A stretch of DNA of 35,526 nt from an uncultured virus (IMG/VR IMGVR_UViG_3300035698_018388) (IMGVR_UViG_3300035698_018388); one strand, 5' to 3'. Positions 4,529 through 27,601 are shown, numbered from the stretch's first letter. The notes: a model not told the origin generated them from the sequence alone. A program made the numbers and translations.

Positions 4529-5692
4529 ATGCCGAAAGCAATCGAAAAGAAAGATCTGGTAGGGTTTGCAAAGAAATTGAACAAAAGTGGTCTTGTTGAT
4601 GATGACGTTGCAGTAAAGGGTAGTTTTGATGACATCGCCGAGGACTTCATTCAGGCCATTGAAGACATTGACGACAATGGGAAAATCGACAAGGTAAAAA
4701 GCAACATCATTACTTTTTACGAAAAACTTTTAAAGGCTGTCGATACCAAAGATGATGATGATGATAAGGGTAAAGGCAAGAAAGAAAAGGGCGAGGCCAA
4801 ATCGTCTGATTTCGATGCTGATGCCCTAACCGACACGCTGGAGGACCTTGATTTCAAGGAAATCAAAAAGTACTGCAAGGCAAACGATTTGCCCAAACCG
4901 GACAAGGCCGAGTACGAGGATGATGAAGACGAAGTCATTGTAGCTATCGTTAAGGCAATGGCTGAAAAGGCTGCTTCCGATGCGGTTGATGACGACGATG
5001 ATGATGAAAAACCGGCTGCATTCGATGCTGACGCCCTGACCGAAACATTAGAAGACATGGACGATTTCAAGGAAATCAAAGCGTTTTGTAAGGAAAACGA
5101 TCTGGCCAAACCCAAAAAGTCCGATTATGAAGACGACGAGGATGAAGTGGTTGCGGCTATTGTTAAGGCAATGTCCAAAAAGGCCGACACCGGCAAGGAC
5201 AAGACCGATGACGATGACAAGGGAATCAAGCCTGATGAACTTCAGGCAGCCCTTGAAGATTGCGATTCTGCAAAAGATGCCAAGGCTCTTTTGAAAAAGT
5301 CCGGCGTTGATTTCAAAATCAAAAAGTCTGATTGGGATGACGACGAGGACGAAGTTATTGAAGCCATTGTCAAATCTTTGGGTAAGAAAGACAAGGGTAA
5401 AGGGAAAAATAAGGGCAAAGATAAGGACGATGCCAATTTGCCTAAAGGGATCAGAAATGGGACAGTCGTTGCAGTCGCCTACACCGCAATTAAGGAAAAC
5501 CCCGGGATCACATGGGGAAAACTGGCAACGATCTTTGCAAAGGCCAAAGGCAAAGATACAACCGCAGAAAAGGTCAAGGGTTCTGCATTTAGAACGGTAT
5601 CCAGAAAGGTTGCGGCGGTCGTTCCTGTTTGTGTTACCTTTTCAGGCAAGGATGAAATGAAAGCAACTTTTACTCTTTCGGAAGACGATTAA
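4529..5692 (+). CDS. Acidic/Lys-rich repeat protein, three ~50-aa helical repeats and possible C-terminal wHTH
   Basis: FDADALT.TLED..FKEIK..CK.NDL.KP.K..YEDDEDEV..AIVKAM twice plus a diverged third copy; strong SD; GC-richer codons; followed by terminator. Confidence 0.8.
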   Translation: MPKAIEKKDLVGFAKKLNKSGLVDDDVAVKGSFDDIAEDFIQAIEDIDDNGKIDKVKSNIITFYEKLLKAVDTKDDDDDKGKGKKEKGEAKSSDFDADALTDTLEDLDFKEIKKYCKANDLPKPDKAEYEDDEDEVIVAIVKAMAEKAASDAVDDDDDDEKPAAFDADALTETLEDMDDFKEIKAFCKENDLAKPKKSDYEDDEDEVVAAIVKAMSKKADTGKDKTDDDDKGIKPDELQAALEDCDSAKDAKALLKKSGVDFKIKKSDWDDDEDEVIEAIVKSLGKKDKGKGKNKGKDKDDANLPKGIRNGTVVAVAYTAIKENPGITWGKLATIFAKAKGKDTTAEKVKGSAFRTVSRKVAAVVPVCVTFSGKDEMKATFTLSEDD

Positions 5693-5810: not shown

Positions 5811-6551
5811 ATGAAAACAAAAATCATGCGTGAAAAATTACTTTCGATTCTTAAAGAATGCAATTTGAATGGAACCATTCCTGAATGTGTTTTAGCAATT
5901 AAAAAAGGCCGGGGATCAATAGAGGCGATTGACATCACCAATACTTTACTCTTTTCATCTACCACCAAATTGGGGTCGGATAAAGGGATAAAGTGTGAAC
6001 TTGGATTGGGCAATATAGATATTCTCGTAAAATTTTTGTCCTCCTCTTCTGACAAAAATGTTAACTTAAAAATTGATGATAGCACAATGGATATCAGATA
6101 TCAGGGTGGGAGCCGCCGGTTAAAATACAATTTAACAGATGCCACTTTGATTTCTTCGACAACAGATCCGAATGATGAAATATTTAAAAAAATTAAAAAA
6201 CTTTTGAAGTTCTCATGTGAAATAAATGACAAGGAAATAAAAGACCTACTTTCATTTATTACATTAACCCAAAATGCCCAAGTGAAAATAAAAATCGAAG
6301 AAGAATCAATAAACATTGTTTGTGGTAATGAAGATGAACATAATCTATCATTAACATTATCTTCTGTTTGTGATAGTGACGATAACGAATTCTCTATGAT
6401 CGTCAATGGGGAACTTCTTTCAAAAATACTCTCCGTTATAAAATACGATTCCGACAACAAACCAAGACTTCTTTTCGGAGAGGATGCCCCGTTGGGAATT
6501 AAAACTAAGAATGCATTCTGGGCTTTGACTCCGCTATCAGAGGAGGAATAA
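5811..6551 (+). CDS. Sliding clamp (PCNA/gp45-like)
   Basis: 246 aa two-domain size, beta-rich, C-terminal PL...WALTP resembling PCNA ending; directly upstream of clamp loader. Confidence 0.7.
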   Translation: MKTKIMREKLLSILKECNLNGTIPECVLAIKKGRGSIEAIDITNTLLFSSTTKLGSDKGIKCELGLGNIDILVKFLSSSSDKNVNLKIDDSTMDIRYQGGSRRLKYNLTDATLISSTTDPNDEIFKKIKKLLKFSCEINDKEIKDLLSFITLTQNAQVKIKIEEESINIVCGNEDEHNLSLTLSSVCDSDDNEFSMIVNGELLSKILSVIKYDSDNKPRLLFGEDAPLGIKTKNAFWALTPLSEEE

Positions 6552-6554
6552 GGC

Positions 6555-7493
6555 ATGAAAGAATTAATATGGTATGAGAAACACCGGCCATCCAAACTAA
6601 AGGCTATGGTGTTGCCTGAAGACTCCAAAGCCCTATTTGACGAGTGGATTAGTGGGGGAGAAATACCACACCTTATATTTTATGGCCCAAGAGGGAGTGG
6701 AAAGACATCGTTATCAAAAATATTAATTTCTGAATGCGCTGGAAAAAGTCTTATCCTTAACGCCAGCAGTGAAGACCGTGGGATAAATACGGTTAAAACC
6801 AGAATCAAAAATTTCGCAAGGGGAAAAACAACAGACAGAAAAAATATAATACTCCTTGATGAAGCTGATGGTCTAACACCAGATGCTCAGATAGCATTAA
6901 AGAATACCATTGAAACCAATCAAAAGAACTGTCGTTTTATTTTAACAGCGAACAATGTTAATAAAATAATCGAAGAACTTCAGAGCCGATGTATCCCTTT
7001 CAAATTCGATGAACTAAAGCCTCGGAAAATATTTAAAATTGTTAAAAGAATTTTGGCAAAAGAAGAAGTTGAATATAAAAGAAAAAAAGATATTGACAAA
7101 TTGATTGAAGAGTATAGCCCGGATATTCGATCAATAATAAACCGTCTTCAGGCCGGATCTATTGGTGGAGCGTTTGATCTGAAAAAGGCATTGTCCTTTG
7201 CCGGAACAAGTGTTGACAAAAAAGTATTAGCCCAACATATCAAAGACGGGAATATCGGATTGATAAGAGGCCTGTTCAGCGGCATGAATGATTTCATCTG
7301 GCTATACGAATATCTCGCTGATGTATTTGTCCAAGAAATACAAAACAAATATGCCGCCGAAGTTATGCTACACACCGCTGAATATATGTATCGTGATCGG
7401 TTTACCCTATTAAAAGAAATAAATGCGGCAGCTTGCCTTGTAGAAATAATGCTTACCATAAACGTAAAGGTGAACTTCGATGTCACCATTTGA
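6555..7493 (+). CDS. Clamp loader AAA+ subunit (RFC small/gp44-like)
   Basis: WYEKHRP, Walker A GPRGSGKT, LNAS, LLDEADGL, FILTAN, SRC motif, DIRSIIN. Confidence 0.95.
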   Translation: MKELIWYEKHRPSKLKAMVLPEDSKALFDEWISGGEIPHLIFYGPRGSGKTSLSKILISECAGKSLILNASSEDRGINTVKTRIKNFARGKTTDRKNIILLDEADGLTPDAQIALKNTIETNQKNCRFILTANNVNKIIEELQSRCIPFKFDELKPRKIFKIVKRILAKEEVEYKRKKDIDKLIEEYSPDIRSIINRLQAGSIGGAFDLKKALSFAGTSVDKKVLAQHIKDGNIGLIRGLFSGMNDFIWLYEYLADVFVQEIQNKYAAEVMLHTAEYMYRDRFTLLKEINAAACLVEIMLTINVKVNFDVTI

Positions 7494-7836: not shown

Positions 7837-8249
7837 CAATAAGCAAATTTACAAAAACCAAATCACACAATGAATCTATAATTGAGCGCTTTGAAAAGCT
7901 TATTAAAAATTCAAGTAAAAGGGAAATAAGAAAAATAGAAATGGCGTTGTTAAAGCCACAACCAATCAAAAGATATACTGGCAAACAACCGGGGATATCA
8001 AGCTTTCACAAAAAGACAATTGAATTTACTTTTAGTAGTGAAAAATATGTAGAACAAATAGAAAAGCTTATCCGTATCAATAAACATATTCGATTTAACA
8101 CCCATGACACTCACATTTTTGAAGAATTTCTGGATATGATTTCTGCTGAAAAATTAATTATTGAAAACGGAAAATTGATTATGGCCTCTAATTATATTTT
8201 GAAATCTGATGGAGGCAAGCAAACAAAAATTACAAGGAGAAAAAAATGA
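7833..8249 (+). CDS. Hypothetical protein with C-terminal KITRRKK
   Basis: ATGA-coupled on both sides. Confidence 0.7.
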   Translation: MTISKFTKTKSHNESIIERFEKLIKNSSKREIRKIEMALLKPQPIKRYTGKQPGISSFHKKTIEFTFSSEKYVEQIEKLIRINKHIRFNTHDTHIFEEFLDMISAEKLIIENGKLIMASNYILKSDGGKQTKITRRKK

Positions 8250-9658
8250 GCTTGCGTGATGAAATATTTGATGAAGGAAGACGTTTTGTTCTGGAAAACA
8301 AAGGATTAAAACTTGATGATAAAGGTAGACAATATCTAAGCCCAAGAATATCTTCTGAATTTATGGACTGTAGCATGCCGTTAACTTTTGATCAATACTC
8401 TCATTGTAGTCTTGGTTGCATTTACTGTTTTGCCTATTTCTTCAAGTCTTGCAACCAAACATTTTCAAGTAAACTACATACCGTAAATCATACGGCTTTA
8501 ATTGATACAATTCATGGGGAACCAAACTCGGCAAGAAATAAAATAATGTACGAACACTTTTTCAAAAAGAAGTTTTTGTTTCATTGGGGCGGAATGGCAG
8601 ATCCATTTTGTAACTTTGAAAAAAGCAATGGTATTGGATACCAGATTGTAAAGGCTCTTGCCGAAGAAAATTATCCTACATTGTTTTCATTTAAGGGAAG
8701 CGCAATTTTCAAACCCAACTTCCAAAACCTATTCGGCGATTATTCCAAACAAAAAAACTTTGCTTTTCAAGTCAGCATAATTGCACCGACAGACAAACAA
8801 AGCAAGGAAGTTGAAATTGGTGTTCCTGTTACTTCAAGAAGAATTGAAGCAATTAGAATGCTTTCTCAAATGGGTTATTATACCATCCTAAGATTGCGAC
8901 CCTATATAATCGGAATAACAAATGAAGGCATTGATGATCTTTTACATAAATGCCTTGAGGCCGGTATAAGGGCTGTCAGTATGGAATTCTTCGCAATGGA
9001 TGCAAGATCAAGTGTTGGTATGAGAAAAAGATATGAGTGGTTGTCAAAACTCATTGGTGTTAAAAGTTTACAAAAGTATTTTAGGGCTTTAAGCCCATCT
9101 GAACGAGGTGGCTATATGAGATTGAATCGCTTAGTTAAAGAAAAGTATGTCAAAACAGTCTACAAATTTTGCCAAGATAATAATCTTGTTTTCGCTTGTA
9201 GTGATCCTGATTTCAAAGAACTAAATACCTCTGGCAGTTGTTGTGGCATGCCAGATAAATATCCAGCAAATCCATTACTTGAAAATTGGACAAGAGGCCA
9301 AATGACATACATGATAAAAGAAGCAAGAAAAAAACACCACATGCATGGAACACAAGCAAAAATAAAATTTGATTCTGTTTACCATCCAAATACAGATACG
9401 TATTTGAATGAAGTCGAACTTGGTCAAGATCATGTTATGGTTTCTGACAGAACCCAAGCGCAAAGACAAGGAATAACATATTTAAAAATCGCAAAGGAAA
9501 TATGGAATAATCTTAGATCACCGTCAAACCCAAGAAATTACTTTCATGGAAAGGTAATGCCCATTACTATAGATGGGGATGGAAATTTTATTTATAAATA
9601 TATTGAAGATGAATATGAAGAAAAATGGAAATCAGAAGGATTAGATTTGACAAGATAA
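8246..9658 (+). CDS. Radical SAM enzyme (SplB/DNA-repair-like subgroup)
   Basis: CSLGCIYC; GGMADPF; EIGVP..SRRIEAIR.L; LRLRPYIIG; late CCG. Confidence 0.85.
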   Translation: MSLRDEIFDEGRRFVLENKGLKLDDKGRQYLSPRISSEFMDCSMPLTFDQYSHCSLGCIYCFAYFFKSCNQTFSSKLHTVNHTALIDTIHGEPNSARNKIMYEHFFKKKFLFHWGGMADPFCNFEKSNGIGYQIVKALAEENYPTLFSFKGSAIFKPNFQNLFGDYSKQKNFAFQVSIIAPTDKQSKEVEIGVPVTSRRIEAIRMLSQMGYYTILRLRPYIIGITNEGIDDLLHKCLEAGIRAVSMEFFAMDARSSVGMRKRYEWLSKLIGVKSLQKYFRALSPSERGGYMRLNRLVKEKYVKTVYKFCQDNNLVFACSDPDFKELNTSGSCCGMPDKYPANPLLENWTRGQMTYMIKEARKKHHMHGTQAKIKFDSVYHPNTDTYLNEVELGQDHVMVSDRTQAQRQGITYLKIAKEIWNNLRSPSNPRNYFHGKVMPITIDGDGNFIYKYIEDEYEEKWKSEGLDLTR

Positions 9659-9662
9659 GGGG

Positions 9663-10661
9663 ATGATAATGAAAAAACCGATAATGAGAAAACAGGTTCC
9701 ACCGTTTACAATAAAATTAGAACTTACAGAAGGGTGCAATTTACATTGTAAGTTTTGCGGGATTAGCAGCATACGAAAAAAACCCGGCAAATTTCGGTTT
9801 ATGACAATTGAAACTGCAAAAGAATTAATAAAACAAATCAAAGATGCTGGGTGGACACCGAAGATCGATTGTGCGATGCATGGTGAACCATTAATGAATA
9901 AAAATGCAACCGAAATATTCAGACTTTTTAGAGAAGCATTTCCAAAAATTTATATGTATGTTACAACAAATGGTGGAGCACTTCTGGCCGGTGATGTTAC
10001 AAAAAATATAGATGCCCTGCTTGAACATTTGAATATAATAGCTCTTGACGATTATAAATATGCAAAAATAGTTCCTAAAGTTTTGAAGGGATATACAGGC
10101 AAGCATAAAATATTTACATACCCAGATATAAAAATTTACAATCGTCAAAATTTTAAAATGAGGGCTTTACTTATCTTTCCAGATATAAGCCAGAACAAAA
10201 AAATCCGGGCAAGACGTTTTAATAATCAGGCCGGGGCTGCTGGCCCTGCTGACTTTTCGATTATGAAACAACGATGTGCCAAACCGTTCAGAGAAATTGC
10301 AATAAAACATGATGGGATGGTTGTCCTCTGCTGTAATGACTGGAGAAGATATTTTAGAATAGGAACAATTTTTGAAAGAAACATAACAAGTTTATGGAAT
10401 GATAAACATTTAATTGCGGCAAGAAGAGTTCTTTTTAATGATGGAAGAACATTCAGTATTTGTCATGGTTGTAATAGTGTTGCATACAGAACGGGTCTCC
10501 TACCAGATCTTACTGCAAAACATACAATGCTAAAACCATCACAACGATGTTATGATCTATTAAAAGATATGGAAAGCCGTGGTTCCGACATAGAAGTATA
10601 TATTCCTAAATTTAGAGACAATAAAATAAAAGGCATTACCCAATTTGCAAAGGAGAAATAA
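9663..10661 (+). CDS. Radical SAM enzyme with SPASM/Twitch-like domain
   Basis: CNLHCKFC, HGEPL, TNG; C-terminal CAKP...LCC...CHGC. Confidence 0.9.
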   Translation: MIMKKPIMRKQVPPFTIKLELTEGCNLHCKFCGISSIRKKPGKFRFMTIETAKELIKQIKDAGWTPKIDCAMHGEPLMNKNATEIFRLFREAFPKIYMYVTTNGGALLAGDVTKNIDALLEHLNIIALDDYKYAKIVPKVLKGYTGKHKIFTYPDIKIYNRQNFKMRALLIFPDISQNKKIRARRFNNQAGAAGPADFSIMKQRCAKPFREIAIKHDGMVVLCCNDWRRYFRIGTIFERNITSLWNDKHLIAARRVLFNDGRTFSICHGCNSVAYRTGLLPDLTAKHTMLKPSQRCYDLLKDMESRGSDIEVYIPKFRDNKIKGITQFAKEK

Positions 10662-10664
10662 CAG

Positions 10665-12047
10665 ATGAAAATTGCAATGATAATGTTCCCACTTGGAGGC
10701 CTTGGTGGTATCGTAAGTAACATTGAAAATCTTTGTTGGGGATTAAAAGAAATCGGTCATGACGTAAACCTTTTTCTTTTTTCTTGGCAAAATAAATTTA
10801 TGACCCCAAAATATAGCGACGATGATTTAATTGGAAAAAATGGGTGGTATCGTGGCTTTACCTGCGCAACACATCAAAGCAATGGTTGGAATCTTCCTTT
10901 AGACCGTAAGGTTGCATATAAAGGCAACAAAAATTTAAGACAAGCCAAACGGTTATTAAAGAAATTTGATCTTATTATTTGGCAAATCCCAGTCCCTACG
11001 CAACAAAAAAACAATAGGGGCAACACCGATTGGCCGGAGTTGTATAAAGTAAATCCAAATAATATATTATACAGTCACGATGCACACTTAATGGCAAGAT
11101 ATCCATATATTTATGAAGTAAAAGAAAATATTACCGGATTGGCCTGTGTCAATGTTTCCAGTTTTTTTGCAAGCCAGATTGGTGGAATAAGAAAAGCATT
11201 GACATTTAGCAGCCATGATATTTCAAAACTGAAACATCGATTCGATTATGACAAAAGGCAAAATGGTTTTTTAAGTTTGCAAACATTTAAGGGGTGGAAG
11301 CATGTTGAAGACTTAGTAAGGGCCATACCCCATATGGAAAAAGAAACAAGAAAAGTAATGGCAGGTGCGGGTAGAGAATATGCATATATGATCAGTAAAG
11401 ATAAATGTAAGCCAGAATATTTTTTGGATAAAAAATATGATCCAGACTTAAAAGATTTAAAATTCAAACAAGATACAAGAATTTGGGATTATGCCGGTGA
11501 ACATGGAATGGAATATTTCGGTTGGATAACGCCATCAGCAAGAAACATATTTTTAAAAAGAGTGAAATGTCTTATTGACCCAAGTTGGAATCTTAACTTT
11601 GCAAAACATGGCGGTCATTTTAATCGTGTATTTATAGACGCAATAAAAAATGGGGCAATACCAATTGGAAGAAATTTTGGCATAACCTCTAACAAAGAGG
11701 GGAATGGATACGTTTTTAAAGCCAATGAAAATTATATTATGATTCCACACGATGCGACACCAAAAGAATTTGCCGAAATTGTAGAAAGAACAAATAGATT
11801 GCCAAGAAAAGAATGGAAAAGAATTTTAAAAAATAATTATGAATTAATAAAACTTTTTGATCGTAAAGTTGTCGCACAACATTTTATTGATTTATCTAAA
11901 GGGAAACCTGCTGGTTTTTTCAAAGACAAGCATGCTTTTCTGAAACAAACACCGCATGCAGTAAAATTAAATTCGGCAAAACTTGCGAAATCCTTTTTTG
12001 GATTAACGCCAAAGAAATTTGAAACCGGATTAAAAAAGTTTATTTAA
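10665..12047 (+). CDS. GT-B fold (GT4-like) glycosyltransferase
   Basis: MKIAMI..PLGGLGGI..L..GL..IGHDV; WKHVEDLVRA; F..V.IDA...GAIPI. Confidence 0.8.
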   Translation: MKIAMIMFPLGGLGGIVSNIENLCWGLKEIGHDVNLFLFSWQNKFMTPKYSDDDLIGKNGWYRGFTCATHQSNGWNLPLDRKVAYKGNKNLRQAKRLLKKFDLIIWQIPVPTQQKNNRGNTDWPELYKVNPNNILYSHDAHLMARYPYIYEVKENITGLACVNVSSFFASQIGGIRKALTFSSHDISKLKHRFDYDKRQNGFLSLQTFKGWKHVEDLVRAIPHMEKETRKVMAGAGREYAYMISKDKCKPEYFLDKKYDPDLKDLKFKQDTRIWDYAGEHGMEYFGWITPSARNIFLKRVKCLIDPSWNLNFAKHGGHFNRVFIDAIKNGAIPIGRNFGITSNKEGNGYVFKANENYIMIPHDATPKEFAEIVERTNRLPRKEWKRILKNNYELIKLFDRKVVAQHFIDLSKGKPAGFFKDKHAFLKQTPHAVKLNSAKLAKSFFGLTPKKFETGLKKFI

Positions 12048-12061: not shown

Positions 12062-12253
12062 ATGGCATTCGTTATTACGTGTCCCTATTGCAATCACAAG
12101 GAGACCATAAGAAATACAAAACATAGATGGGTATTTCTCCAAATTGGAAAAACAAAATGTGTCGATTGCCATAAAGAGATAAAAATAAATGATAGAACAT
12201 TGAAAACAATGCAAGTAATCGGAAGCGGTAAAATCACAAGGAGGAAAAAATGA
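12062..12253 (+). CDS. Small Zn-ribbon protein with C-terminal KITRRKK
   Basis: CPYC...CVDC; SD GGAG. Confidence 0.7.
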   Translation: MAFVITCPYCNHKETIRNTKHRWVFLQIGKTKCVDCHKEIKINDRTLKTMQVIGSGKITRRKK

Positions 12254-12681
12254 AAGAATCAGTTGAAACGAAAAACCGTTTATTTTTTGATCGTCATTTT
12301 TACTTGTATGCAAAAGGCTGGTACGAAAGAACAGATGTTTTGCAAGACTTAAAAAAAATTGTCGCTGACCGTTGTGGACGCGGAATTGAAGCTATTGGTT
12401 TTGGAAGTATCTTCTCTATTTTGATAAAGCTGGTTTATTCCCATATTGGAAACGAATATAGATTTATTGAATTTGTAGAAAATCTTCTCCCGGAACAAAG
12501 ATGGAAAGTAAAAACCTCCTTTAATAAAGAAAGCACCTTTGAAGAAATAATGTTGAATAATTGTCTTTCTGTATTATCAAGGCAAAAGGTAACAGATATT
12601 CCTTTTGCTCTTGGCGAGCCTGATTGGGACATATTGCCAAAACCAGCTTCAAAAAAAATTAAAGAAATGACCTTAAAATAA
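12250..12681 (+). CDS. Hypothetical protein
   Basis: ATGA-coupled, SD AGGAGG. Confidence 0.7.
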   Translation: MKESVETKNRLFFDRHFYLYAKGWYERTDVLQDLKKIVADRCGRGIEAIGFGSIFSILIKLVYSHIGNEYRFIEFVENLLPEQRWKVKTSFNKESTFEEIMLNNCLSVLSRQKVTDIPFALGEPDWDILPKPASKKIKEMTLK

Positions 12682-12697: not shown

Positions 12698-15600
12698 ATG
12701 TCATTCTGCCATTTACACGTTCATGATGAATACTCTCAACTTGATGGAATGGGAACGGCTAAGGAGTATGTTGCCGCAGCAAAAGAAAATGGCTTTAAAT
12801 ATCTTGGATTAACTAACCACGGAAACATAGATAGCTTAATAAAATTTCAAAGGGAATGCGAAGCCGGTGGCATTACTCCAGTTCTTGGTTGTGAAGCATA
12901 TATCGTTGACGACATTGCAAAAAAGAAAACAGAAAAGCGGCATCACATTTGTCTCTTTGTAAAAAATCAAAGAGGATGGAGAAATCTCACAACGTTAATG
13001 ACCTTTGCAAATATTGAAGGGTTTTACTACCGACCAATTATAGATTATGGAACACTCCTCAAGCATTGCGAAGGACTTGTTATATCAACAGCATGTGCAG
13101 GAACATTTTTGCACCACAAAAACGGTATAGACCTATTTGAAAAATTAAACAAAAAAATAGGAAGTGATTTATATCTTGAAGTAATGCCGCACGATATTAA
13201 AGTGCAATACCCAACAAATAAACTTGTTAAAAAACTATCCAAAAAATATGGCAACAAAATAATTGCAACAAACGATTGCCATTATGTTTTAAGGAGTGAT
13301 CATAAAGTTCAAGATGTACTCCTTGCAATACAAAGACAGGTTAAATGGAACGATCCCAAACGATTTAGTTTCGGATTCAAAGGATTGCATTTAAGAACCG
13401 AAAAGGAAATGATTAGAGCATTTAAGAAAATAGGAGAAGATGATTATCAAGAATGGTTGGACAACACGATTGAAGTTGCTAAAAAGTGTTCTGATTTCAA
13501 AATAAAGAAAAGAACCGTTAGATTGCCAGAACCAAAAATAAATAATGTTATTTTAGATACCAAAGGAAAAGAGTCTAATTTCTTATGGGCTCTTATCTAC
13601 AGCGGATATGAATATTTATTTGGTATTAAAAAGAATCTTAAAGAGAATAAAAAATATTATCGAAGGGCAAAACGAGAATTTGAACTCCTTCAGAAAAAAG
13701 GGTTTATTCATTATCTCTTAATTGTTTGGGAATTAATTGATTGGTGCGAAAAAAATAATATAATAATTGGACCGGGACGTGGTAGTGTTGGTGGTTCTTT
13801 AATTGCCTACTTAATTGGCATCACCCAAGTTGATCCAATTAAATATGGCCTTTATTTTGAAAGATTTGTATCTGAAGATCGAGTTGATTTGCCAGATATA
13901 GATATTGATTTTGATAGAGAAAAAAGATATTTGGTGGTAAAACATCTTGAAGAACTATATGGGGAGGATAACGTTTGTGCGGTTAGTTCTTTTAATCGAA
14001 TGAAAAGTAGAGCCGCAATTGGAGAAGTTGGAAAGGTATTTGGAGTTCCTGATTATGAATTAAAGGCATTCTCAAAATTAATTGATTACAAAGAAGAAGA
14101 CGCTCTTAAAACAGCATTAGATACCTATCCAGAAGGGCAAGCATTAAAAGACAATTATCCCTTTGTTGTTAAGGCAGCATTACGACTTGAAGGTCAAATT
14201 CGGAATTACGGAAAACACGCAGCCGCAATTGTCGTTTCTAAAAGGCCAATTGCAAAAGGCGGGCGTTGTAATCTTATAAGAAGAAATAAAACAACATTAA
14301 TAAATTGGGGAAAAGAAGATACAGAGTTTATGGGATTAATGAAATTTGATTTATTAAGTCTCAGTCTTCTTTCAATTTATGATGGAACAAAAAAAGCAAT
14401 AAAAGAAAATCACGGTATCGATATTGACTTCAAAAAAATACCACTTGATGATAAAAAAGTTTTGAAAAATATTAGTGATGGGAATAATGTTGGAGTATTT
14501 CAGATAGGCACATGGGCGACCAACAGTCTTATCCAAGAAATGCATGGTGTTCGTTGCTTTGACGATATTGCTGCCGCCATTGCGCTTGTTAGACCCGGTC
14601 CTATGCAATCTGGCATGACCGAACAGTACATTGAACGGAGACAAGTTGGCGAATGGGAACAGACCCATAAGATATACGATGAAATCACAGAAGAAACAAA
14701 TGGAGTACTTGTTTATCAGGAACAGGTGATGGCCGTTATAAGCAAGATGGCAGGACTTCCATATTCAACAGCAGATCAGATAAGAAAGATTATTGGAAAG
14801 AAAAGAGATCCCAAAGAATTTGAAACGTATAGAAAACAATTTCTGGATGGTTGTATAAAACAAAAAACATTTTCTAAAAAGGAAGCAAAAGAATTTTGGG
14901 AAGGATTATTAAAGTGGGCAAAATATGGTTTTGGAAAAGCCCATTCTATTGAATATGCTTTACTTGGATACTGGTGCGCTTTTCTAAAACTCTACTACCC
15001 ATTAGAGTTTATATGTGCAAATTTGACCTACGGTTCAGATGCAAAGAAAACAGAACTTGTCGAAGAAATATATGATCTTGGTTTAAAAATAGAATTGCCA
15101 AAAGTAGGAATAAGTGAAGCTGAAAAATGGGTTACTAAATCTGATAGAGTGTTTATTCCATTTGCTGAAATCAAAGGCGTCGGCCCGGTATTGGCAAGAG
15201 AAGCAACAGCAGAAACGAATAGTAATGCTGGACTTAAAAGATTCTATAATCCAAAAGGGAAAAGCAAGATACAGCAGCATCCCGGAAAACTCGGGAAAAT
15301 ACTCCAGTTGATTGGTGCATATGGTTCTGACGAAATAGAAATAACAAAAGAGATTAGTGATTTATTCGATTTTAGAATTGAAGGCAATAATTCAAAGATA
15401 TATAAAAACTTATGGAAGGTTCTTATAAAAGGAGCAAAAAATAAAGGTTTGCCAATCGTTCGTGAAGAAGGTCTCGTAAACGAAAAGAATTTAAAGGAAT
15501 TAGTAACCGGAGATATTGAAAAGCTTCGTTTATTACAAGAATATAATGCCAAAATAATTAAAAGGAAATCTTTCAGGCCAAAGCGTGGAAGATTCTTAGA

Positions 15601-16192
15601 CGAATTAAAATCATGTAATGAATGCGAATTAAGAGAGGAGTGTACTTCTCCCGTTCCCCCAAGTTCTGGAAAACTTAATGTCATAATCGCTGGTGAAGCA
15701 CCGGGTAAAGATGAAGATGAAAAGGGAGTTTGCTTTGTTGGTCGTACCGGTAATGATATCCTATGGCCCGAACTTAAAAAGTATGGATTTGAACGATCAT
15801 CTTTTCATGTAACAAATATAGACAAATGCTTTCCAAAGAAAAGTAGAAAGCCGTCACCAAAGCAGATACAGATTTGTGCGAATAAATTCTTTAAAAAGGA
15901 AGTTAAACAAATAAGAGCAAAAATAATTTTAGCCTTTGGAAATACGAATTTATTTTTGTTTACTGGAAACAAAGGTGGCATTACAGATTGGAATGGAAAA
16001 ATAATGTGGAACGAAGAATATGCTGCATGGATTTTCTTTTGTTTGCATCCTGCATCAGTACTCCATAATCCAGATAACAAAATACCGTTTAAAAAATCAA
16101 TAAAACAATTTGCAAAATATGTTAATGAAATAAAAGAAGAGAAGCAATTAAAGACGACAAAGCATTTTGATGATGACGACATCCCATTTTAA
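12698..16192 (+). CDS. dnaE: DNA polymerase III alpha (family C) fused to C-terminal family-4 uracil-DNA glycosylase
   Basis: PHP HLHVH..YS.LDG, TNHG, TNDCHY; GRGS; PDIDID; KFDLL; RPGP; YQEQVM; YGFGKAHS; IKGVG. UDG domain (~15596-16140): CNEC, GEAPG, FVG, KCFP, HPAS. Confidence 0.95.
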   Translation: MSFCHLHVHDEYSQLDGMGTAKEYVAAAKENGFKYLGLTNHGNIDSLIKFQRECEAGGITPVLGCEAYIVDDIAKKKTEKRHHICLFVKNQRGWRNLTTLMTFANIEGFYYRPIIDYGTLLKHCEGLVISTACAGTFLHHKNGIDLFEKLNKKIGSDLYLEVMPHDIKVQYPTNKLVKKLSKKYGNKIIATNDCHYVLRSDHKVQDVLLAIQRQVKWNDPKRFSFGFKGLHLRTEKEMIRAFKKIGEDDYQEWLDNTIEVAKKCSDFKIKKRTVRLPEPKINNVILDTKGKESNFLWALIYSGYEYLFGIKKNLKENKKYYRRAKREFELLQKKGFIHYLLIVWELIDWCEKNNIIIGPGRGSVGGSLIAYLIGITQVDPIKYGLYFERFVSEDRVDLPDIDIDFDREKRYLVVKHLEELYGEDNVCAVSSFNRMKSRAAIGEVGKVFGVPDYELKAFSKLIDYKEEDALKTALDTYPEGQALKDNYPFVVKAALRLEGQIRNYGKHAAAIVVSKRPIAKGGRCNLIRRNKTTLINWGKEDTEFMGLMKFDLLSLSLLSIYDGTKKAIKENHGIDIDFKKIPLDDKKVLKNISDGNNVGVFQIGTWATNSLIQEMHGVRCFDDIAAAIALVRPGPMQSGMTEQYIERRQVGEWEQTHKIYDEITEETNGVLVYQEQVMAVISKMAGLPYSTADQIRKIIGKKRDPKEFETYRKQFLDGCIKQKTFSKKEAKEFWEGLLKWAKYGFGKAHSIEYALLGYWCAFLKLYYPLEFICANLTYGSDAKKTELVEEIYDLGLKIELPKVGISEAEKWVTKSDRVFIPFAEIKGVGPVLAREATAETNSNAGLKRFYNPKGKSKIQQHPGKLGKILQLIGAYGSDEIEITKEISDLFDFRIEGNNSKIYKNLWKVLIKGAKNKGLPIVREEGLVNEKNLKELVTGDIEKLRLLQEYNAKIIKRKSFRPKRGRFLDELKSCNECELREECTSPVPPSSGKLNVIIAGEAPGKDEDEKGVCFVGRTGNDILWPELKKYGFERSSFHVTNIDKCFPKKSRKPSPKQIQICANKFFKKEVKQIRAKIILAFGNTNLFLFTGNKGGITDWNGKIMWNEEYAAWIFFCLHPASVLHNPDNKIPFKKSIKQFAKYVNEIKEEKQLKTTKHFDDDDIPF

Positions 16193-16200: not shown

Positions 16201-16225
16201 AAAAATTTCAAAACCGTGTTATAAT
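16201..16225 (+). promoter_or_regulatory. Putative promoter, second copy of the 4430-4454 motif
   Basis: AAAAATttCAAAAccgtGTTATAAT, TATAAT at 16220-16225. Confidence 0.55.
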
Positions 16226-16243
16226 GTATATATGGAGGAAAAA

Positions 16244-16447
16244 ATTAAATTCTTTAAGAACCGTTCGAGGTGCTCCCATGTTGGTGCCAACCGGGTTCGA
16301 TCGTTTCCCTGCCGCTAATTTCATCATCGCCAAAGCGAAGCGGCCTTTTACCGGGATCAAAGTGTTCCGGTGCCAACCGGGTTCGGGAGAGAAGGAGCAT
16401 TCCCCATTTACCACCGACATGCTCGTGCGGTTCTTAAAGAATTTAAT
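16244..16447 (+). ncRNA. Candidate structured ncRNA or 5' leader
   Basis: Perfect 20-bp terminal inverted repeat, nested stems with G-U pairs, 17-nt direct repeat, potential pseudoknot; GC-rich island after a promoter motif. Confidence 0.6.
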
Positions 16448-16467
16448 AAAAGCCAAAAGGAGTCAAA

Positions 16468-16953
16468 ATGCAATATAGAGAAGACCTGAATATTAACAAA
16501 TTCAATTTGGACGAGGAGTTGATTCGGCAACCACAACATTTTTTAGATTGGGCTTTGGCTTGGAATAACGCAGCAGATCAAAGAGAAAAAGCAAAAAGCC
16601 GATTTGAATTAATCAAAGCAGAAACGGAATCTAACATAAGAAAGCATCCTGATGATTATGATATCCCTTCTGGTAAGGCAACAGAACCGGCAATCAAATC
16701 AGAAGTATTAAAACATAGTCGAGTTAGAAAGGCACAACGAAAATATTTAAAAGCATTGAAAAATGAACGGGTATTGGCAGATGTCAAAACGTCATTCAGA
16801 CAGAGAAAATCAATGCTTGAAAAATTAGTTGACCTGAACTTGCAAGTCCATTTTTCAGATCCGAAGATACCAACAACTCAAAAGGAATCTATTTATCAGC
16901 ACAGAAAAAGAAAAATAACTCGGAAACTAAGGAAGTCATTCGATGATCGCTAA
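16468..16953 (+). CDS. Coiled-coil protein, possible UvsY-like recombination mediator
   Basis: Helical, ends ..SFRQRKSML..L; lies upstream of SSB and RecA. Confidence 0.5.
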   Translation: MQYREDLNINKFNLDEELIRQPQHFLDWALAWNNAADQREKAKSRFELIKAETESNIRKHPDDYDIPSGKATEPAIKSEVLKHSRVRKAQRKYLKALKNERVLADVKTSFRQRKSMLEKLVDLNLQVHFSDPKIPTTQKESIYQHRKRKITRKLRKSFDDR

Positions 16954-17158
16954 CCTACTCATAGAAATAATAAAAGATATTTTTATTTATGCTTCAGCAT
17001 TGATTGTGCTACTTGTTTTGATTTATGTTGCCTCAAGACTTGTGGCTCTTGGTGTTGCAAAAAGTATAATTAAGGCAATAAATGATAACGCTGCTGAAAA
17101 GGCGGCAAAACAGGGAGGAAATGAAAATGGCAAGAGACAAGAGTCGGAGAAAATTTGA
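16943..17158 (+). CDS. Small membrane protein
   Basis: Hydrophobic IFIYASALIVLLVLIYVA. Confidence 0.6.
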   Translation: MIANLLIEIIKDIFIYASALIVLLVLIYVASRLVALGVAKSIIKAINDNAAEKAAKQGGNENGKRQESEKI

Positions 17159-18284
17159 TAGTAAGAAGTTAAAAGAAAGAACCAAAGAATCTCAAAAACG
17201 GGCGAAGGCCGGTGGCAAAAATATCTTAGATAACAGCAAGGATCTTCCGAAAATTGTTTTTCGAGAAGGCAAACATACCTTTGATATTATTCCTTACATT
17301 ACCGGAAAGAACGACAGCGAGCCTAACGAATGGGCCTACACTTTTGAATACTACATGCATCGAAATATCGGCACCGCAAAAATTCCTGTCATTTGTCCAC
17401 AAGCAACATTTGGGGAGCCTTGTCCCATATGCGAACATCAACAGAAACTAAGAGACAAAGGCGACGAATCGTATAAAGACTACTGGCCAAAAAGAAGAAA
17501 CCTTTATAATATCATTTGCTATGACCGGGGAGAACAAGAAAAGGGAATCCAACTTCTGGATGTAAGTTGGCATTATATGGAAAAGTATTTAGCAACAATT
17601 TCAGAAAAAACAAACCGGAAAACCGGAAAACTGGAAACTATCAGTTTTGCCGATACCGACAAAAGAAAAGGCCGCTCTATTGAATTTACATTAGAAGCCG
17701 CAAAATCTGAAAATGACTACCCTGATTGGCGTGGACATAACTTTGATCGACGAGATTATGATATTAAAGACAGTATTCTTGAAAAAGCACTTGTCCTTGA
17801 TAAATGTGTTGTCCTTATGAGTTATGATGAACTGGAAGAACTTCATTTTAATGGGCCGAAGGGTAAAAATAATTCAGACGATGATGACAAACCAGAATCC
17901 GTTTCCGACGATCTTGATGATCTGAAAGACGACCTTGAAGACATTGATGATTTTAAAGATCTGAAGGAGTTCATAAAGAATAATGATCTTGACATCAAAG
18001 TCAAAAAGGCAGATTGGAAAGATGACGAAGACGATGCAAAAGATGAAGTCCGGGTTGTCCTTGAAAAGAAATTTGATGGAAATGCTGCCGACGACGATGA
18101 TGATGATGATGATGACAAAAAAGATAAACATACTGAAAAAGAAATTGAAAAAATGTCATTTAAGAAATTAAAGAAACTTATCAAAGATGAAGATCTTGAT
18201 ATTGATATGGACGATTATGAAAAAGACGATGACGATGATCTTGAAGACCTTCGGGAAGAAGTAGTTGACAAACTGGATCTGTAA
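17127..18284 (+). CDS. gp32-like single-stranded DNA-binding protein with acidic repeat tail
   Basis: YYMH, CPQATFGEPCPICE Zn motif, PKRRNLYNI, very acidic C-terminus; SD GGAGG at 17114-17118 favours ATG 17127. Confidence 0.75.
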   Translation: MARDKSRRKFDSKKLKERTKESQKRAKAGGKNILDNSKDLPKIVFREGKHTFDIIPYITGKNDSEPNEWAYTFEYYMHRNIGTAKIPVICPQATFGEPCPICEHQQKLRDKGDESYKDYWPKRRNLYNIICYDRGEQEKGIQLLDVSWHYMEKYLATISEKTNRKTGKLETISFADTDKRKGRSIEFTLEAAKSENDYPDWRGHNFDRRDYDIKDSILEKALVLDKCVVLMSYDELEELHFNGPKGKNNSDDDDKPESVSDDLDDLKDDLEDIDDFKDLKEFIKNNDLDIKVKKADWKDDEDDAKDEVRVVLEKKFDGNAADDDDDDDDDKKDKHTEKEIEKMSFKKLKKLIKDEDLDIDMDDYEKDDDDDLEDLREEVVDKLDL

Positions 18285-20350: not shown

Positions 20351-20560
20351 ATGGGCATTGAAAAAGAAATTCATAAACTTGAAAAAATTATTGATCCTGA
20401 TGTACGATTGGATTCAATGCGTTTTGATTGCGGCAATAATACCGCAGGAATACGAGTTAGAAAAGTAATGCAAACAATAAGAAAGCAAGCGGAGAATATT
20501 CGCAATCTTATTATATACGAACGGGAAAGAAGAAAGATAAGTCGAAGGAGAAAAAAATGA
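20351..20560 (+). CDS. Small basic protein resembling histone H1-like Hc1 family
   Basis: GNNTAGIRVRK resembles the Hc1 GNKAA..R.R motif. Confidence 0.55.
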   Translation: MGIEKEIHKLEKIIDPDVRLDSMRFDCGNNTAGIRVRKVMQTIRKQAENIRNLIIYERERRKISRRRKK

Positions 20561-21030
20561 AAATACTCGCAATTGATCAGGCAACTAAAACCGGATATGC
20601 TCACAACTGTTTTAAAAAAATAAATTCAGGGGTTGCCGATTTTAAACCGAGGCGTGGTGATTCTCCCGGAATGAGGTTTATTAATTTTAAAGCATGGTTA
20701 TCTGAACTTGTAAAAAGTACAAAGCCAGAACTTATTATATATGAGCAGGAGCATCACCGTGGAGGCGCACCAACAGCTATTGCTCTTGGTCTTATTGCAA
20801 TGATTAGTGTTGTTGCGACTGAAAATAATTGCGATATTACTTCGGCCCATACTGGCAAGGTTAAAAAGTGGGCAACCGGAAACGGAAGGGCGTCAAAGGA
20901 AGAAATGGTAGCAGCAGCAAAAAAACTTGGATTTAAACCAGAAGATGATAATGAAGCAGATGCTCTTTTAATTTTACTCTGGTATCTTGATCAATTCAAA
21001 CCCATTAAAATAACGAGGCGGAAGAAATGA
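20557..21030 (+). CDS. ruvC: RuvC-like Holliday junction resolvase
   Basis: ILAIDQ..KTG, IIYE, VKKWATGNGRASKEEM, DDNEADA. Confidence 0.85.
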   Translation: MKILAIDQATKTGYAHNCFKKINSGVADFKPRRGDSPGMRFINFKAWLSELVKSTKPELIIYEQEHHRGGAPTAIALGLIAMISVVATENNCDITSAHTGKVKKWATGNGRASKEEMVAAAKKLGFKPEDDNEADALLILLWYLDQFKPIKITRRKK

Positions 21031-21260: not shown

Positions 21261-21523
21261 AGTTAATCTTTTACCCTAAAACAAAACGAGAAGCCCGTAA
21301 ACATCGTTATCACATACATCGGTGGAATACTAATGGTTGTGTATATGACCGCAAACGATGTGCCTGTGAAGTCGAATACGCAATGTGTGAGGAGATAATT
21401 AAAAACCAATGTCTCCACCAAAACGGCTTTGGCTATAAAGAACTATATTGTAAAGCACATCAGCATGGAATTCAAATAACCAGAAGGAAAAAGAAATCAA
21501 AAATCACAAGGAGGAAGAAATGA
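21257..21523 (+). CDS. Cys/His-rich hypothetical protein with tandem ITRRKK tail
   Basis: ATGA-coupled; ends QITRRKKKSKITRRKK. Confidence 0.65.
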   Translation: MKLIFYPKTKREARKHRYHIHRWNTNGCVYDRKRCACEVEYAMCEEIIKNQCLHQNGFGYKELYCKAHQHGIQITRRKKKSKITRRKK

Positions 21524-26675: not shown

Positions 26676-26813
26676 ATGATCTGGAGAAAAAGAAAAAAAG
26701 AAGATCATAACTGGAAAATTACTTTTACAAAAGTATCCGGTGGCAATCCAAAGAAAAGGAAGAATTTATTTTTAAGAACACTTGACAAATTAAAATTCTG
26801 GAGGACAAAATGA
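26676..26813 (+). CDS. Small basic protein, 45 aa (not in ORF track)
   Basis: Fills the gap, ATGA-coupled to next gene. Confidence 0.4.
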   Translation: MIWRKRKKEDHNWKITFTKVSGGNPKKRKNLFLRTLDKLKFWRTK

Positions 26814-27601
26814 AAACAGTAGCAATCGTTCAGGCAAGGATGGGGTCTACAAGACTTCCCGGCAAAGTATTATTACCCCTTGCAGATAAACCGACCTTAT
26901 GGTGGGTGGCAAAGAGGATTGCCGCATCTGATGTTGATGAAGTGGTAATCGCAACTCCTTCCCATCCGGGAAATAATAAAATTTTGGACTTTTTCTTTGA
27001 ATTATTAAAAGATCATTCAAGGGAAGAATTTTATAAAATGCCATATCTATTTTTATATGAAGGTGAAGAAGATGATGTTCTCGGAAGAGTAATTGCTGCC
27101 GCAGAATGGTCTGGTGCTGATTTGATTGTTGAAATTACAGGAGACTGCCCTCTTGTAGATCCCCGGCATATAAACGCTTTATTGCAAGAAATGAAAATAA
27201 GACTTGGAGCAAATATTAAAATATCAAAGTTTTGCTACATTTCAAATTGTGAAGAAAGAACATGGCCTGATGGATTTGATATTCAGATCTACACAATGGA
27301 AGCACTCCTTGATTTAAAGAAAAGGTATGATCCCAAGACTCATGTGGGTTGGAACTTTACGCAGCATAAACATTTTTATGAAACGATTAATGTTCCGGCA
27401 CCTAAAGATTACTATTGGCCTGAACTTGGGTTGACTTTGGATACAAAAGAAGACTATGATCTTCTTAACAAAATATGCAAATATTTTAAAAATGATCCGC
27501 TTGCAAGTGCTGAAATGATAATTGATTACATAAAGAGGAGGCCTGAATTGGCAAACATAAACAATGAAGTAAAACGAAAAGATCCTAAAAAGGAGGCATG
27601 A
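26810..27601 (+). CDS. spsF: Cytidylyltransferase, SpsF/PseF-like (CMP-nonulosonate synthetase family)
   Basis: IVQARMGSTRLPGKVL, DVLGR, ITGDCPLVDP, LTLDTKEDY. Confidence 0.9.
   Translation: MKTVAIVQARMGSTRLPGKVLLPLADKPTLWWVAKRIAASDVDEVVIATPSHPGNNKILDFFFELLKDHSREEFYKMPYLFLYEGEEDDVLGRVIAAAEWSGADLIVEITGDCPLVDPRHINALLQEMKIRLGANIKISKFCYISNCEERTWPDGFDIQIYTMEALLDLKKRYDPKTHVGWNFTQHKHFYETINVPAPKDYYWPELGLTLDTKEDYDLLNKICKYFKNDPLASAEMIIDYIKRRPELANINNEVKRKDPKKEA

What the first reader, a model, noticed from the sequence alone, without database searches (positions are those of the whole stretch)
16166..16192. Replicative polymerase ends in a bacterial SSB C-terminal tip mimic (FDDDDIPF*)
Seen: DnaE-UDG terminates KHFDDDDIPF. 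Established: DFDDDIPF is the E. coli SSB C-terminal tip that binds ExoI, RecQ, RecJ, PriA, RecG, Pol III chi, primase and Ung. The element's own gp32-like SSB ends VVDKLDL and lacks it. Inference: the SSB interaction hub has been moved onto the polymerase to recruit or sequester host genome-maintenance proteins; this DnaE has no obvious epsilon partner in the window, so a host exonuclease is one possible recruit.
Basis: partly seen in the sequence, partly recalled or inferred. Interest (0 to 1): 0.8.

Follow-up and report, generated by a model that had tools for sequence, protein, structure and literature searches.

The report
Phage polymerase ending in SSB tip
A phage's main DNA-copying enzyme ends in a floppy tail whose last residues copy the docking tip that bacterial single-strand-binding protein uses to recruit its partners, which may let the phage enzyme plug into the host's DNA-maintenance network.

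Summary
Observation confirmed. ORF 12698-16192 (+) encodes a 1164-aa DnaE-type polymerase fused to a family-4 UDG domain and ends KHFDDDDIPF-stop exactly at 16166-16192.

The tip sits on a 19-residue extension beyond the last UDG helix. That extension is modelled as disordered and not docked in cis.

The closest relative (58% identical, complete 65.6-kb phage) has a diverged linker but the same last four residues, DIPF. Most relatives lack any tail. Hydrophobic-Pro-Phe ends occur in four separate clades: 4 of 144 database DnaE-UDG polymerases, about 0.05-0.1 expected.

The tail does not track the phage's clamp type. A different internal motif is conserved in 35 of 35 aligned relatives.

Best reading (about 0.5): an SSB-tip mimic docking the polymerase onto proteins with SSB-tip pockets, probably host proteins. 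The partner is not identified.

The DnaE-UDG fusion is published. I found no paper describing this tip on a polymerase. This scan noted the same kind of tail before on other DNA (e1-6019157).

The parts
12698..16192 (+). Gene for the 1164-aa DnaE-type polymerase fused to a family-4 UDG domain
   Evidence: ORF list and translation. Pfam PHP, DNA_pol3_alpha, finger and UDG. phrog_405 DNA polymerase, E 3e-268. Thermus aquaticus DnaE 2hpi E 2e-138 and Thermus UDG 1ui0 E 5e-22. AF2 model mean pLDDT 87.
12710..13186 (+). PHP domain (residues 5-163) with the putative metal-ligand positions conserved; likely the polymerase's own proofreading nuclease
   Evidence: Pfam. H5, H7, D16, H41, E66, H83, C133, D193 and H195 align to identical residues of Taq DnaE and are invariant or at least 90% conserved in 31 relatives. 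That these are the nine metal ligands is recalled; PMC3919608 (passages) says nine PHP metal-binding positions of Taq DnaE1 were analysed.
15362..15373 (+). Internal motif, residues 889-892 (L-F-D-F), after the HhH region; candidate clamp-binding motif
   Evidence: In 35 of 35 aligned DnaE-UDG relatives the fourth position of the 8-mer is hydrophobic and the sixth aromatic; F892 in 34 of 35, F890 in 30 of 35. Its role as the clamp-binding site is inferred from its position and its conservation whatever the tail state.
15671..16129 (+). Family-4 UDG domain (residues 992-1144), replacing the OB and C-terminal domains of bacterial DnaE
   Evidence: PF03167, E 3.5e-21. Solved family-4 UDGs 1ui0, 4zbx, 1vk2. 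Conserved Cys, GEAPG-type and HP motifs across relatives. The architecture is described in PMC3919608 (passages).
16133..16165 (+). Linker (residues 1146-1156) between the last UDG helix and the tip
   Evidence: Extension of 19 residues past the UDG end; most relatives have 0-8. AF2: last helix 1125-1145, residues 1148-1164 pLDDT below 50 with no secondary structure.
16166..16192 (+). SSB-tip-like end F-D-D-D-D-I-P-F plus the stop codon (the finding)
   Evidence: Direct reading. Identical in L004 and L005. The last four residues DIPF are kept in the 58%-identical relative, with two synonymous codon differences.
17082..18284 (+). gp32-like single-strand-binding protein with an acidic C-terminal region but no I/L-P-F tip
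   Evidence: PF08804 gp32, E 7e-8. Ends VVDKLDL. 55% identical homologue in G002 also lacks the tip. A gp32-like hit was found in 20 of 25 related targets tested, the window included.
5811..6551 (+). PCNA/gp45-like sliding clamp (246 aa)
   Evidence: No Pfam family. The Atlas's own model (pTM 0.85) aligns to archaeal PCNA clusters at TM 0.81-0.84 and to a gp45-slide_C-bearing cluster by features. Homologues occur in tail-less G003, L026, L110 and L113.
6555..7493 (+). Clamp-loader AAA+ subunit
   Evidence: phrog_168 clamp loader, E 4e-72. PF00004 and PF13177.

Best explanation
The polymerase carries a short linear docking motif at the end of a flexible 19-residue extension. It is an acidic run followed by Ile-Pro-Phe with a free carboxyl end, the same chemistry as the C-terminal tip of bacterial SSB.

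The most likely mechanism is that this tip inserts into the pockets that normally receive the SSB tip: a hydrophobic pocket for the last Phe and a basic residue for its carboxylate. That would tether the phage polymerase to one or more SSB-interacting proteins.

The phage coats its ssDNA with a gp32-like SSB that has no such tip, so host SSB partners would otherwise not be drawn to phage forks. The tip on the polymerase would restore one such link, probably to a host factor.

Shown: the sequence, its position, its predicted disorder, its conservation in the sister phage, and its recurrent appearance in the family. Inferred: that it binds SSB-tip pockets, that the partner is a host protein, and which partner it is (unknown).
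For: 1. The last six residues equal the published SSB-Ct hexapeptide DDDIPF (PMC5872125 abstract). In that paper's passages the terminal Phe and its carboxylate are the key contacts.
2. The tip ends a 19-residue extension absent from most relatives. It is modelled as disordered, pLDDT below 50 for residues 1148-1164, and not packed on the protein.
3. The sister polymerase (58% identity, complete phage G002) has an unalignable linker but the same DIPF end, with synonymous codon changes.
4. Of 144 database-derived DnaE-UDG polymerases with a complete end, 4 end in [ILV]PF, against 0.05-0.10 expected (P of four or more is 3e-7 to 4e-6). With the window clade these form four separate clades on a tree of 142. 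Within two clades the PF end is kept while neighbouring residues change.
5. The sporadic, lineage-specific distribution fits adaptation to a host factor better than a core replisome contact. All 34 window replication-module proteins compared are either shared with tail-less phages or not shared with all tail-bearing ones.
6. No OB-fold SSB in 0 of 2 complete relatives; the gp32-like SSBs lack the tip.
7. Precedent for grafting the tip onto a non-OB protein: prophage DUF669 SSBs carry DDDIPF (PMC13687109, passages).
Against: - No binding was measured or predicted here, and the host is unknown, so the tip cannot be compared with the host's own SSB tip.
- Most relatives manage without it. Tail-less examples: 0 of 34 DnaE-UDG hits have it; the sister-group protein P0002; G003; L026; 9 of 9 MAG-binned DnaE-UDG loci with a complete end; Rhizobium phage B1VFA and Pseudomonas phage Nican01.
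- Only two of the four clades (window/G002 and P0125/P0189) have the acidic run. The others are bare xPF ends directly after the UDG domain and may do something else.
- The P0079 and P0082 ends are not independent of each other; with three independent database clades the chance figure is weaker.
- A C-terminal acidic/aromatic tail is also how T4/RB69 polymerases hold their clamp and how T7 proteins hold the polymerase (recalled), so a phage-internal partner is not excluded.
Confidence: 0.5

Rival explanations
1. The tail contacts another phage replisome protein other than the clamp (helicase, primase, gp32-like SSB, FEN, clamp loader). This would be a reversed version of the T7 arrangement, in which acidic Phe-ended tails of the SSB and helicase hold the polymerase.
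For: The whole replisome is phage-encoded and lies around the gene. The polymerase lacks the bacterial C-terminal domain (PMC3919608 passages). That this domain is the tau-binding one is recalled. So some other coupling device is plausible. The helicase is the protein whose similarity drops most between tail-bearing G002 (65%) and tail-less G003 (34%).
Against: Every candidate partner family is also present in tail-less relatives. A universal partner does not explain a tail found in four small clades only. The exact match to the bacterial SSB tip would then be a coincidence.
Confidence: 0.2
2. The tail is the polymerase's clamp-binding peptide, like the C-terminal tails of T4/RB69 gp43 or the C-terminal motifs of bacterial Pol II and Pol IV.
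For: Replicative polymerases often hold their clamp by a C-terminal hydrophobic/aromatic peptide (recalled). The phage encodes its own clamp and loader. The two other tail-bearing phages with context (G002, L027) both have a beta-like clamp, phrog_947.
Against: - The tail does not track clamp type. With a PCNA-like clamp: window has the tail; G003, L026, L110 and L113 do not.
- With a beta-like clamp: G002 and L027 have the tail; L029 (identical to L030) and L036 do not.
- An internal aromatic motif at 889-892, placed after the HhH region as in bacterial DnaE, is conserved in 35 of 35 relatives with or without the tail. It is the better candidate.
Confidence: 0.07
3. The tail is a decoy. It competes with host SSB for its partners, or blocks a host defence or repair factor (for instance host Ung or a nuclease) that is normally recruited through the SSB tip.
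For: Same sequence evidence as the main reading. The fused UDG domain and the neighbouring candidate DNA-modification genes suggest conflict over base content.
Against: A polymerase is expected to be far less abundant than SSB tails, so competition would be inefficient (inference). Dedicated small decoy proteins would do this better.
Confidence: 0.08
4. The acidic tail acts in cis. It folds back on a basic DNA-binding surface of the UDG or polymerase domains and gates DNA binding, as SSB's own tail does on its OB fold.
For: Four consecutive Asp next to DNA-binding domains. Tails of SSBs are known to bind their own cores (recalled).
Against: The AF2 model leaves residues 1148-1164 undocked at pLDDT about 34 (weak evidence). 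The conserved part is I-P-F rather than the charge: G002 has D-D-Y-K-D, and L027 and P0065 have almost no acidity.
Confidence: 0.1
5. The resemblance is fortuitous and the tail has no specific function.
For: Most relatives lack it.
Against: The chance expectation is 1e-7 for DDDDIPF in this window. The DIPF end is retained across 42% divergence while the linker is scrambled. PF ends are enriched in the family.
Confidence: 0.05

Closest known systems
C-terminal tip of bacterial SSB (SSB-Ct, DDDIPF in E. coli) and its partner pockets
   Same: Identical last six residues, an acidic run, Pro-Phe with a free C-terminus, at the end of a disordered linker (PMC5872125 abstract and passages).
   Different: It sits on a replicative polymerase rather than an OB-fold ssDNA-binding tetramer, so there is one tail per enzyme instead of four per SSB. 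No partner is shown.
DnaE variant with OB and C-terminal domains replaced by an archaeal-type UDG (Timinskas et al. 2014, PMC3919608, passages seen)
   Same: Same architecture: PHP, Pol3 core, HhH, UDG.
   Different: The passages I saw describe the fusion in some Yersinia and Salmonella strains and do not mention a C-terminal tip. Here the enzyme is phage-borne and has a 19-residue extension.
Prophage DUF669 ssDNA-binding proteins ending in DDDIPF (PMC13687109, passages seen)
   Same: A mobile-element protein unrelated to OB-fold SSB carries the bacterial SSB tip. The authors propose mimicry to reach host proteins.
   Different: Those are still ssDNA-binding proteins. Here the carrier is the polymerase, and the phage's SSB lacks the tip.
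Acidic, Phe-terminated tails of T7 gp2.5 and gp4 (recalled, no call)
   Same: An acidic flexible tail ending in Phe is used as a replisome docking device.
   Different: In T7 the tails are on the SSB and helicase and dock onto the polymerase. Here the polymerase itself bears the tail, and the end is the bacterial I-P-F type.
C-terminal clamp-binding tails of T4/RB69 gp43 (recalled, no call)
   Same: A replicative phage polymerase with a short flexible C-terminal peptide containing Asp and Phe. The window phage has a gp45/PCNA-like clamp.
   Different: The tail is absent from relatives with the same clamp. An internal conserved motif is the likelier clamp site.
B. subtilis DnaE retention at forks through the SSB tail (Costes et al. 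2010, as cited in PMC3919608 passages)
   Same: It links a DnaE-type polymerase with the SSB tip system.
   Different: There the polymerase is the receiver of the tip. Here the polymerase carries it.

Membership tests
SSB-Ct type short linear motif | Sequence: acidic residues followed by [I/L/P]-P-F | tested here: met
   The end is D-D-D-D-I-P-F, against the published DDDIPF (PMC5872125 abstract).
SSB-Ct type short linear motif | Located at the extreme C-terminus (free carboxylate of the last Phe) | tested here: met
   TAA follows the Phe codon at 16190-16192. The carboxylate is a key contact in the PMC5872125 passages.
SSB-Ct type short linear motif | Presented on an intrinsically disordered linker | tested here: met
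   AF2: residues 1148-1164 have pLDDT below 50, no secondary structure and are not docked. This is a prediction only.
SSB-Ct type short linear motif | Binds the hydrophobic pocket and basic lip of SSB-interacting proteins | not testable with these tools
   The host is unknown. A stand-in fold with a model bacterial partner would pass by likeness to solved structures, so it was not run.
Bacterial SSB (OB-fold, PF00436) | OB-fold ssDNA-binding core carrying the tip | tested here: not met
   The carrier is a polymerase. PF00436 is absent from G001-G003 (0 of 3 records). The protein works like the SSB tip but is not an SSB.
DnaE-UDG fusion polymerases | PHP, Pol III alpha core, fingers and HhH followed by a family-4 UDG in place of the OB and C-terminal domains | tested here: met
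   Pfam, PDB matches, 148 relatives with the same end domain, description in PMC3919608.
DnaE-UDG fusion polymerases | Intact-looking catalytic motifs of PHP and UDG | tested here: met
   PHP ligand positions and UDG Cys/GEAPG/HP positions are invariant or at least 90% conserved in 31 sequences. Identical to Taq DnaE at the PHP positions. Activity was not tested.
Polymerase C-terminal clamp-binding peptide | Present in relatives that use the same clamp family | tested here: not met
   PCNA-like clamp: 1 of 5 loci has the tail. Beta-like clamp: 2 of 4 distinct loci have it, L029 and L030 being identical.
Polymerase C-terminal clamp-binding peptide | Physical docking on the cognate clamp | tested here: inconclusive
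   One co-folding job gave no verdict. It counts neither way.
T7-type acidic Phe-terminated replisome tails | Acidic flexible tail ending in an aromatic residue, carried by the SSB or helicase and docking on the polymerase | tested here: not met
   The form is met, but the carrier is the polymerase itself. The helicase and gp32-like SSB of the window end in ...VGKEEK and ...DKLDL.

The most novel reading that the evidence does not exclude
Phage DnaE-UDG polymerases have gained the bacterial SSB docking tip several times independently (at least four clades). A replisome built on a tip-less gp32-like SSB can thereby plug its polymerase directly into the host's SSB interactome. The interaction hub is transplanted from the ssDNA-binding protein to the polymerase, and this may define which host factor each phage lineage depends on.
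Probability: 0.4. Interest if true: 0.75.

Novelty: new variant of a known kind. Interest (0 to 1): 0.6.

Why it matters
The SSB tip is the central recruiting signal of bacterial genome maintenance and is a drug target. A phage polymerase that carries it would be a natural example of hub mimicry on a different carrier.

If true, it would:
- give a handle, through tail pull-downs, for finding which host replication or repair factor these uncultured phages need;
- explain how replisomes with gp32-like SSBs stay connected to host factors;
- show that the motif is portable enough to evolve repeatedly.

It also warns annotators that a D-I-P-F end does not by itself identify an SSB.

Tried and rejected
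1. Co-folding of the tail (residues 1120-1164) with the phage's own PCNA-like clamp (3-row alignment). No verdict: score 0.02 against a mark of 0.32, controls not run. It is not evidence either way.
2. Looking for the tip on another protein in tail-less relatives, an idea from earlier scan notes. In complete G003 no ORF of 40 aa or more has an acidic plus aromatic end. The DNA pattern for D-x-P-F-stop hits 0 times in G003 and only the polymerase in G002.
3. Gene-content correlate of the tail. No window protein is present in all tail-bearing and absent from all tail-less loci. L026 and L027 are partial.
4. A chi-like partner next door. The 143-aa ORF at 12250-12681 has no Pfam or PHROG family, a poor Atlas model (pLDDT 0.46) and no meaningful neighbour.
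5. Word-index homologue search for the clamp found nothing at E 1e-5 or better. A PDB sequence search gave only spurious repeat-protein hits.
6. Host identification. No whole genome is held. MAG bins holding relatives carry inconsistent taxon labels, so no host call was made.
7. FtsZ C-terminal peptide (D-I-P-x-F-L, recalled) was considered. It was rejected because that motif has a residue between Pro and Phe and is not at the very end.
8. Literature searches for an SSB-tip-like tail on a polymerase or other non-SSB protein found none apart from the DUF669 paper. The searches were: 'SSB-Ct' + phage + mimic; 'DDIPF' anywhere; five phrasings of 'SSB-like tail'. Only listings and abstracts were seen, except where passages are cited. 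Subscription journals are not covered.
9. Cultured phages with DnaE-UDG and known hosts (Rhizobium B1VFA, Pseudomonas Nican01) lack the tail. The 'tail matches the host tip' test therefore could not be done.

Full report
**What is there.** The window is the replication half of an uncultured phage (35% G+C). Its replication genes, by Pfam and PHROGs, are:
- primase, 149-1078;
- O/DnaD-like initiator, 1467-2666;
- DnaB-like helicase, 2663-4273;
- a PCNA/gp45-like clamp, 5811-6551 (Atlas structure neighbours are archaeal PCNA at TM 0.81-0.84);
- clamp loader, 6555-7493;
- the polymerase, 12698-16192;
- gp32-like SSB, 17082-18284;
- UvsX/RecA-like recombinase, FEN-type exonuclease, RuvC-like resolvase and SbcCD-like nuclease.

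The polymerase (1164 aa) has PHP, Pol III alpha core and finger domains followed by a family-4 UDG domain. It matches solved Thermus DnaE and Thermus UDG structures. Two other metagenome records carry the identical end.

**Is it more than chance?** With the composition of 45 window proteins, a D[IL]PF end is expected 7.5e-4 times and DDDDIPF 1e-7 times.

- The alignment of 35 family members shows that the UDG domain normally ends the protein within a few residues. The window protein and its closest relative instead carry an added extension, 19 and 27 residues respectively by the measure. The closest relative is L002/G002, 58% identical, from a complete 65.6-kb phage with terminal repeats.
- The two linkers cannot be aligned, yet both end D-I-P-F, with synonymous differences in the Asp and Ile codons.
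- In an AlphaFold2 model (31-sequence alignment, mean pLDDT 87) the last helix is 1125-1145. Residues 1148-1164 have pLDDT below 50, no secondary structure and no docking onto the body.

**Distribution in the family.**
- None of the 34 DnaE-UDG proteins found by the word-index search has such an end.
- A full HMMER scan of 1.84 billion representatives returned 150 best hits, 147 of them new. Four of the 147 end in [ILV]-P-F: P0065 (A-E-V-P-F), P0079 (F-L-P-F), P0082 (Q-V-P-F) and P0125 (Y-Y-D-D-V-P-F).
- I pooled all sequences and kept those whose UDG domain is complete. Seven of 148 have the end. Three of the 148 (L002, L026 and L027 polymerases) were added by me from loci fetched because of tail-bearing hits, and one is the query. 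The unbiased count is therefore 4 of 144, against 0.05 expected from composition or 0.10 from the empirical 3-mer rate (P of four or more is 3e-7 to 4e-6).
- P0079 and P0082 are neighbours on the tree, so there are three independent database clades plus the window clade.
- On a FastTree of 142 polymerase cores the four clades are far apart; their common ancestor spans 114 of 142 leaves.
- In a second clade the PF end is again kept while the preceding residues change: P0065 against the 75%-identical L027 polymerase, A-E-V-P-F against G-L-I-P-F. P0189, the other member of P0125's 90%-identity cluster (a full-length form), has the same end.
- Only the window clade and P0125/P0189 combine the end with an acidic run.
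- Tail-less examples include the sister-group protein P0002, complete phage G003, L026, 9 of 9 MAG-binned DnaE-UDG loci with a complete end, and the cultured Rhizobium phage B1VFA and Pseudomonas phage Nican01.

**Testing the ordinary explanation: a clamp-binding tail.** Polymerase C-terminal peptides often bind the sliding clamp (recalled for T4/RB69 gp43, Pol II and Pol IV), so I compared clamp type with tail state.
- With a PCNA/gp45-like clamp, the window has the tail, but G003, L026, L110 and L113 do not.
- With a beta-like clamp (phrog_947), G002 and L027 have it, but L029 (identical to L030) and L036 do not.
- Both clamp types therefore work with tail-less polymerases.
- An internal motif at residues 889-892 (L-F-D-F) lies after the HhH region, where bacterial DnaE has its clamp motif. 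It is conserved in 35 of 35 aligned relatives, with F892 in 34 of 35. It is the better clamp-site candidate; this is inference.
- One co-folding job of the tail with the clamp returned no verdict and counts for nothing.

**Looking for a phage-encoded partner.**
- No window protein is shared by all tail-bearing loci and missing from all tail-less ones.
- The gp32-like SSB, UvsX, helicase, clamp loader and SbcC-like genes occur in both groups.
- The complete tail-less relative G003 has no other protein with an acidic or aromatic end. So the idea, from earlier notes of this scan, that the tip simply sits on another replication protein in relatives is not borne out here.

**What it most likely does.**
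- The end equals the published SSB-Ct hexapeptide, whose terminal Phe and carboxylate are the main contacts (PMC5872125, abstract and passages).
- It is exposed on a flexible linker, which is how SSB presents its tip.
- The phage's own SSB is gp32-like and tip-less. Neither complete relative encodes an OB-fold SSB.
- A sporadic motif gained several times fits an accessory adaptation to something that differs between lineages. The host is the obvious candidate.

I therefore favour (0.5) docking of the polymerase onto a protein with an SSB-tip pocket, probably a host one. The identity of the partner is open.

Alternatives and my weights: a phage partner other than the clamp 0.2, the clamp 0.07, cis-regulation 0.1, decoy or sequestration 0.08, no function 0.05.

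- 'No epsilon partner' is true as an observation. Pfam finds no DnaQ-type domain in the window, and PF00929 is absent from both complete relatives.
- However, the PHP positions H5, H7, D16, H41, E66, H83, C133, D193 and H195 are identical to those of Thermus aquaticus DnaE in the alignment. They are invariant or nearly so across 31 relatives.
- PMC3919608 (passages) links an intact PHP metal site with Zn-dependent proofreading in some C-family polymerases. That these nine positions are the ligands is my recollection.
- A host exonuclease is therefore not needed to explain the missing epsilon.
- Sequestration of host factors by a low-copy enzyme seems inefficient (inference).

**Comparison with what is known.**
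- The DnaE-UDG architecture is published: PMC3919608 (passages) reports OB and C-terminal domains replaced by an archaeal-type UDG in extra polymerases of some Yersinia and Salmonella strains.
- The same paper cites work showing that B. subtilis DnaE is held at forks through the SSB tail, so DnaE-type enzymes and the tip system are already linked, in the opposite direction.
- A 2026 paper notes DDDIPF on prophage DUF669 ssDNA-binding proteins and proposes host mimicry (PMC13687109, passages).
- I found no paper describing the tip on a polymerase (searches; listings and abstracts only; subscription journals are not covered).
- Within this scan the same kind of tail was noted before on a DnaE-UDG polymerase of another, 110-kb phage (e1-6019157) and on a phage clamp (e1-1962977). 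My sequence look-up did not link those to this window, so they are further independent cases if correct. I did not check them.

**Verdict.** This is a real, non-random, conserved short linear motif. It is a new variant of a known kind: the SSB tip on a new carrier. The mechanism is plausible but the binding is unproven. Interest 0.6.

Noticed in passing
window 16207-16456: Directly after the polymerase stop there is a promoter-like TTTCAA-N17-TATAAT. It is followed by a G+C-rich element of about 210 nt with a closing stem of about 20 bp and an internal 17-base direct repeat. MFE is -87.3 kcal/mol, z = -6.6 against shuffles. There is no Rfam family at gathering score and no tRNA. It is absent at the same spot in G002. 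It overlaps the mechanical ORF 16224-16478, which has no family. Candidate phage non-coding RNA.
   Followed up: partly
window 8246-12047: Between the clamp loader and the polymerase lie a 470-aa unknown protein (phrog_13321), a radical-SAM/SPASM protein (9663-10661) and a 460-aa protein with no family. The first and third have 54-60% identical homologues in G003. An earlier scan note (e1-6121033) reads a similar cluster in an 81-kb phage as DNA sugar hypermodification. That could bear on why the polymerase carries a UDG domain.
   Followed up: no
window 26810-35525: A run of nonulosonic-acid-type sugar genes in a phage: cytidylyltransferase, oxidoreductase, DegT-type aminotransferase, NeuB, NUDIX, PseB-like dehydratase and GNAT. 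None has a homologue in G002 or G003 except a weak cytidylyltransferase hit.
   Followed up: no
window 8229-8249, 12233-12253, 21010-21030, 21503-21523 (and 20540-20560): Several small proteins end in the same I-T-R-R-K-K (one in I-S-R-R-R-K-K) and are followed or overlapped by the next gene. My reading, not checked base by base, is that these codons spell the AGGAGG ribosome-binding site of the next gene, so the protein ends are dictated by translational coupling.
   Followed up: no
window 4529-5692: A 387-aa, strongly acidic protein with no family lies between the helicase and the clamp. Homologues occur in G002, G003 and L027, and the G002 one contains long D/K repeats. Function unknown.
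   Followed up: no
window 5811-7493 versus L002 3707-5681: Sister phages with 58%-identical polymerases use different clamp systems. The window has a PCNA/gp45-like clamp with a phrog_168 loader. G002 has a beta-like phrog_947 clamp with a phrog_5846 loader. This implies module exchange within the replication operon.
   Followed up: partly
window 20351-20560: A 69-aa protein matching the chlamydial histone-like Hc1 family (PF07432, E 7e-9) sits in the recombination gene block. It is also present in G002 but not in G003.
   Followed up: no
P0022, P0025, P0026, P0027 (relatives, not in the window): Another subgroup of DnaE-UDG polymerases carries a different C-terminal add-on: a 52-65-residue Cys-rich extension that looks like a zinc finger. 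The polymerase end seems to be a hot spot for accessory modules.
   Followed up: no
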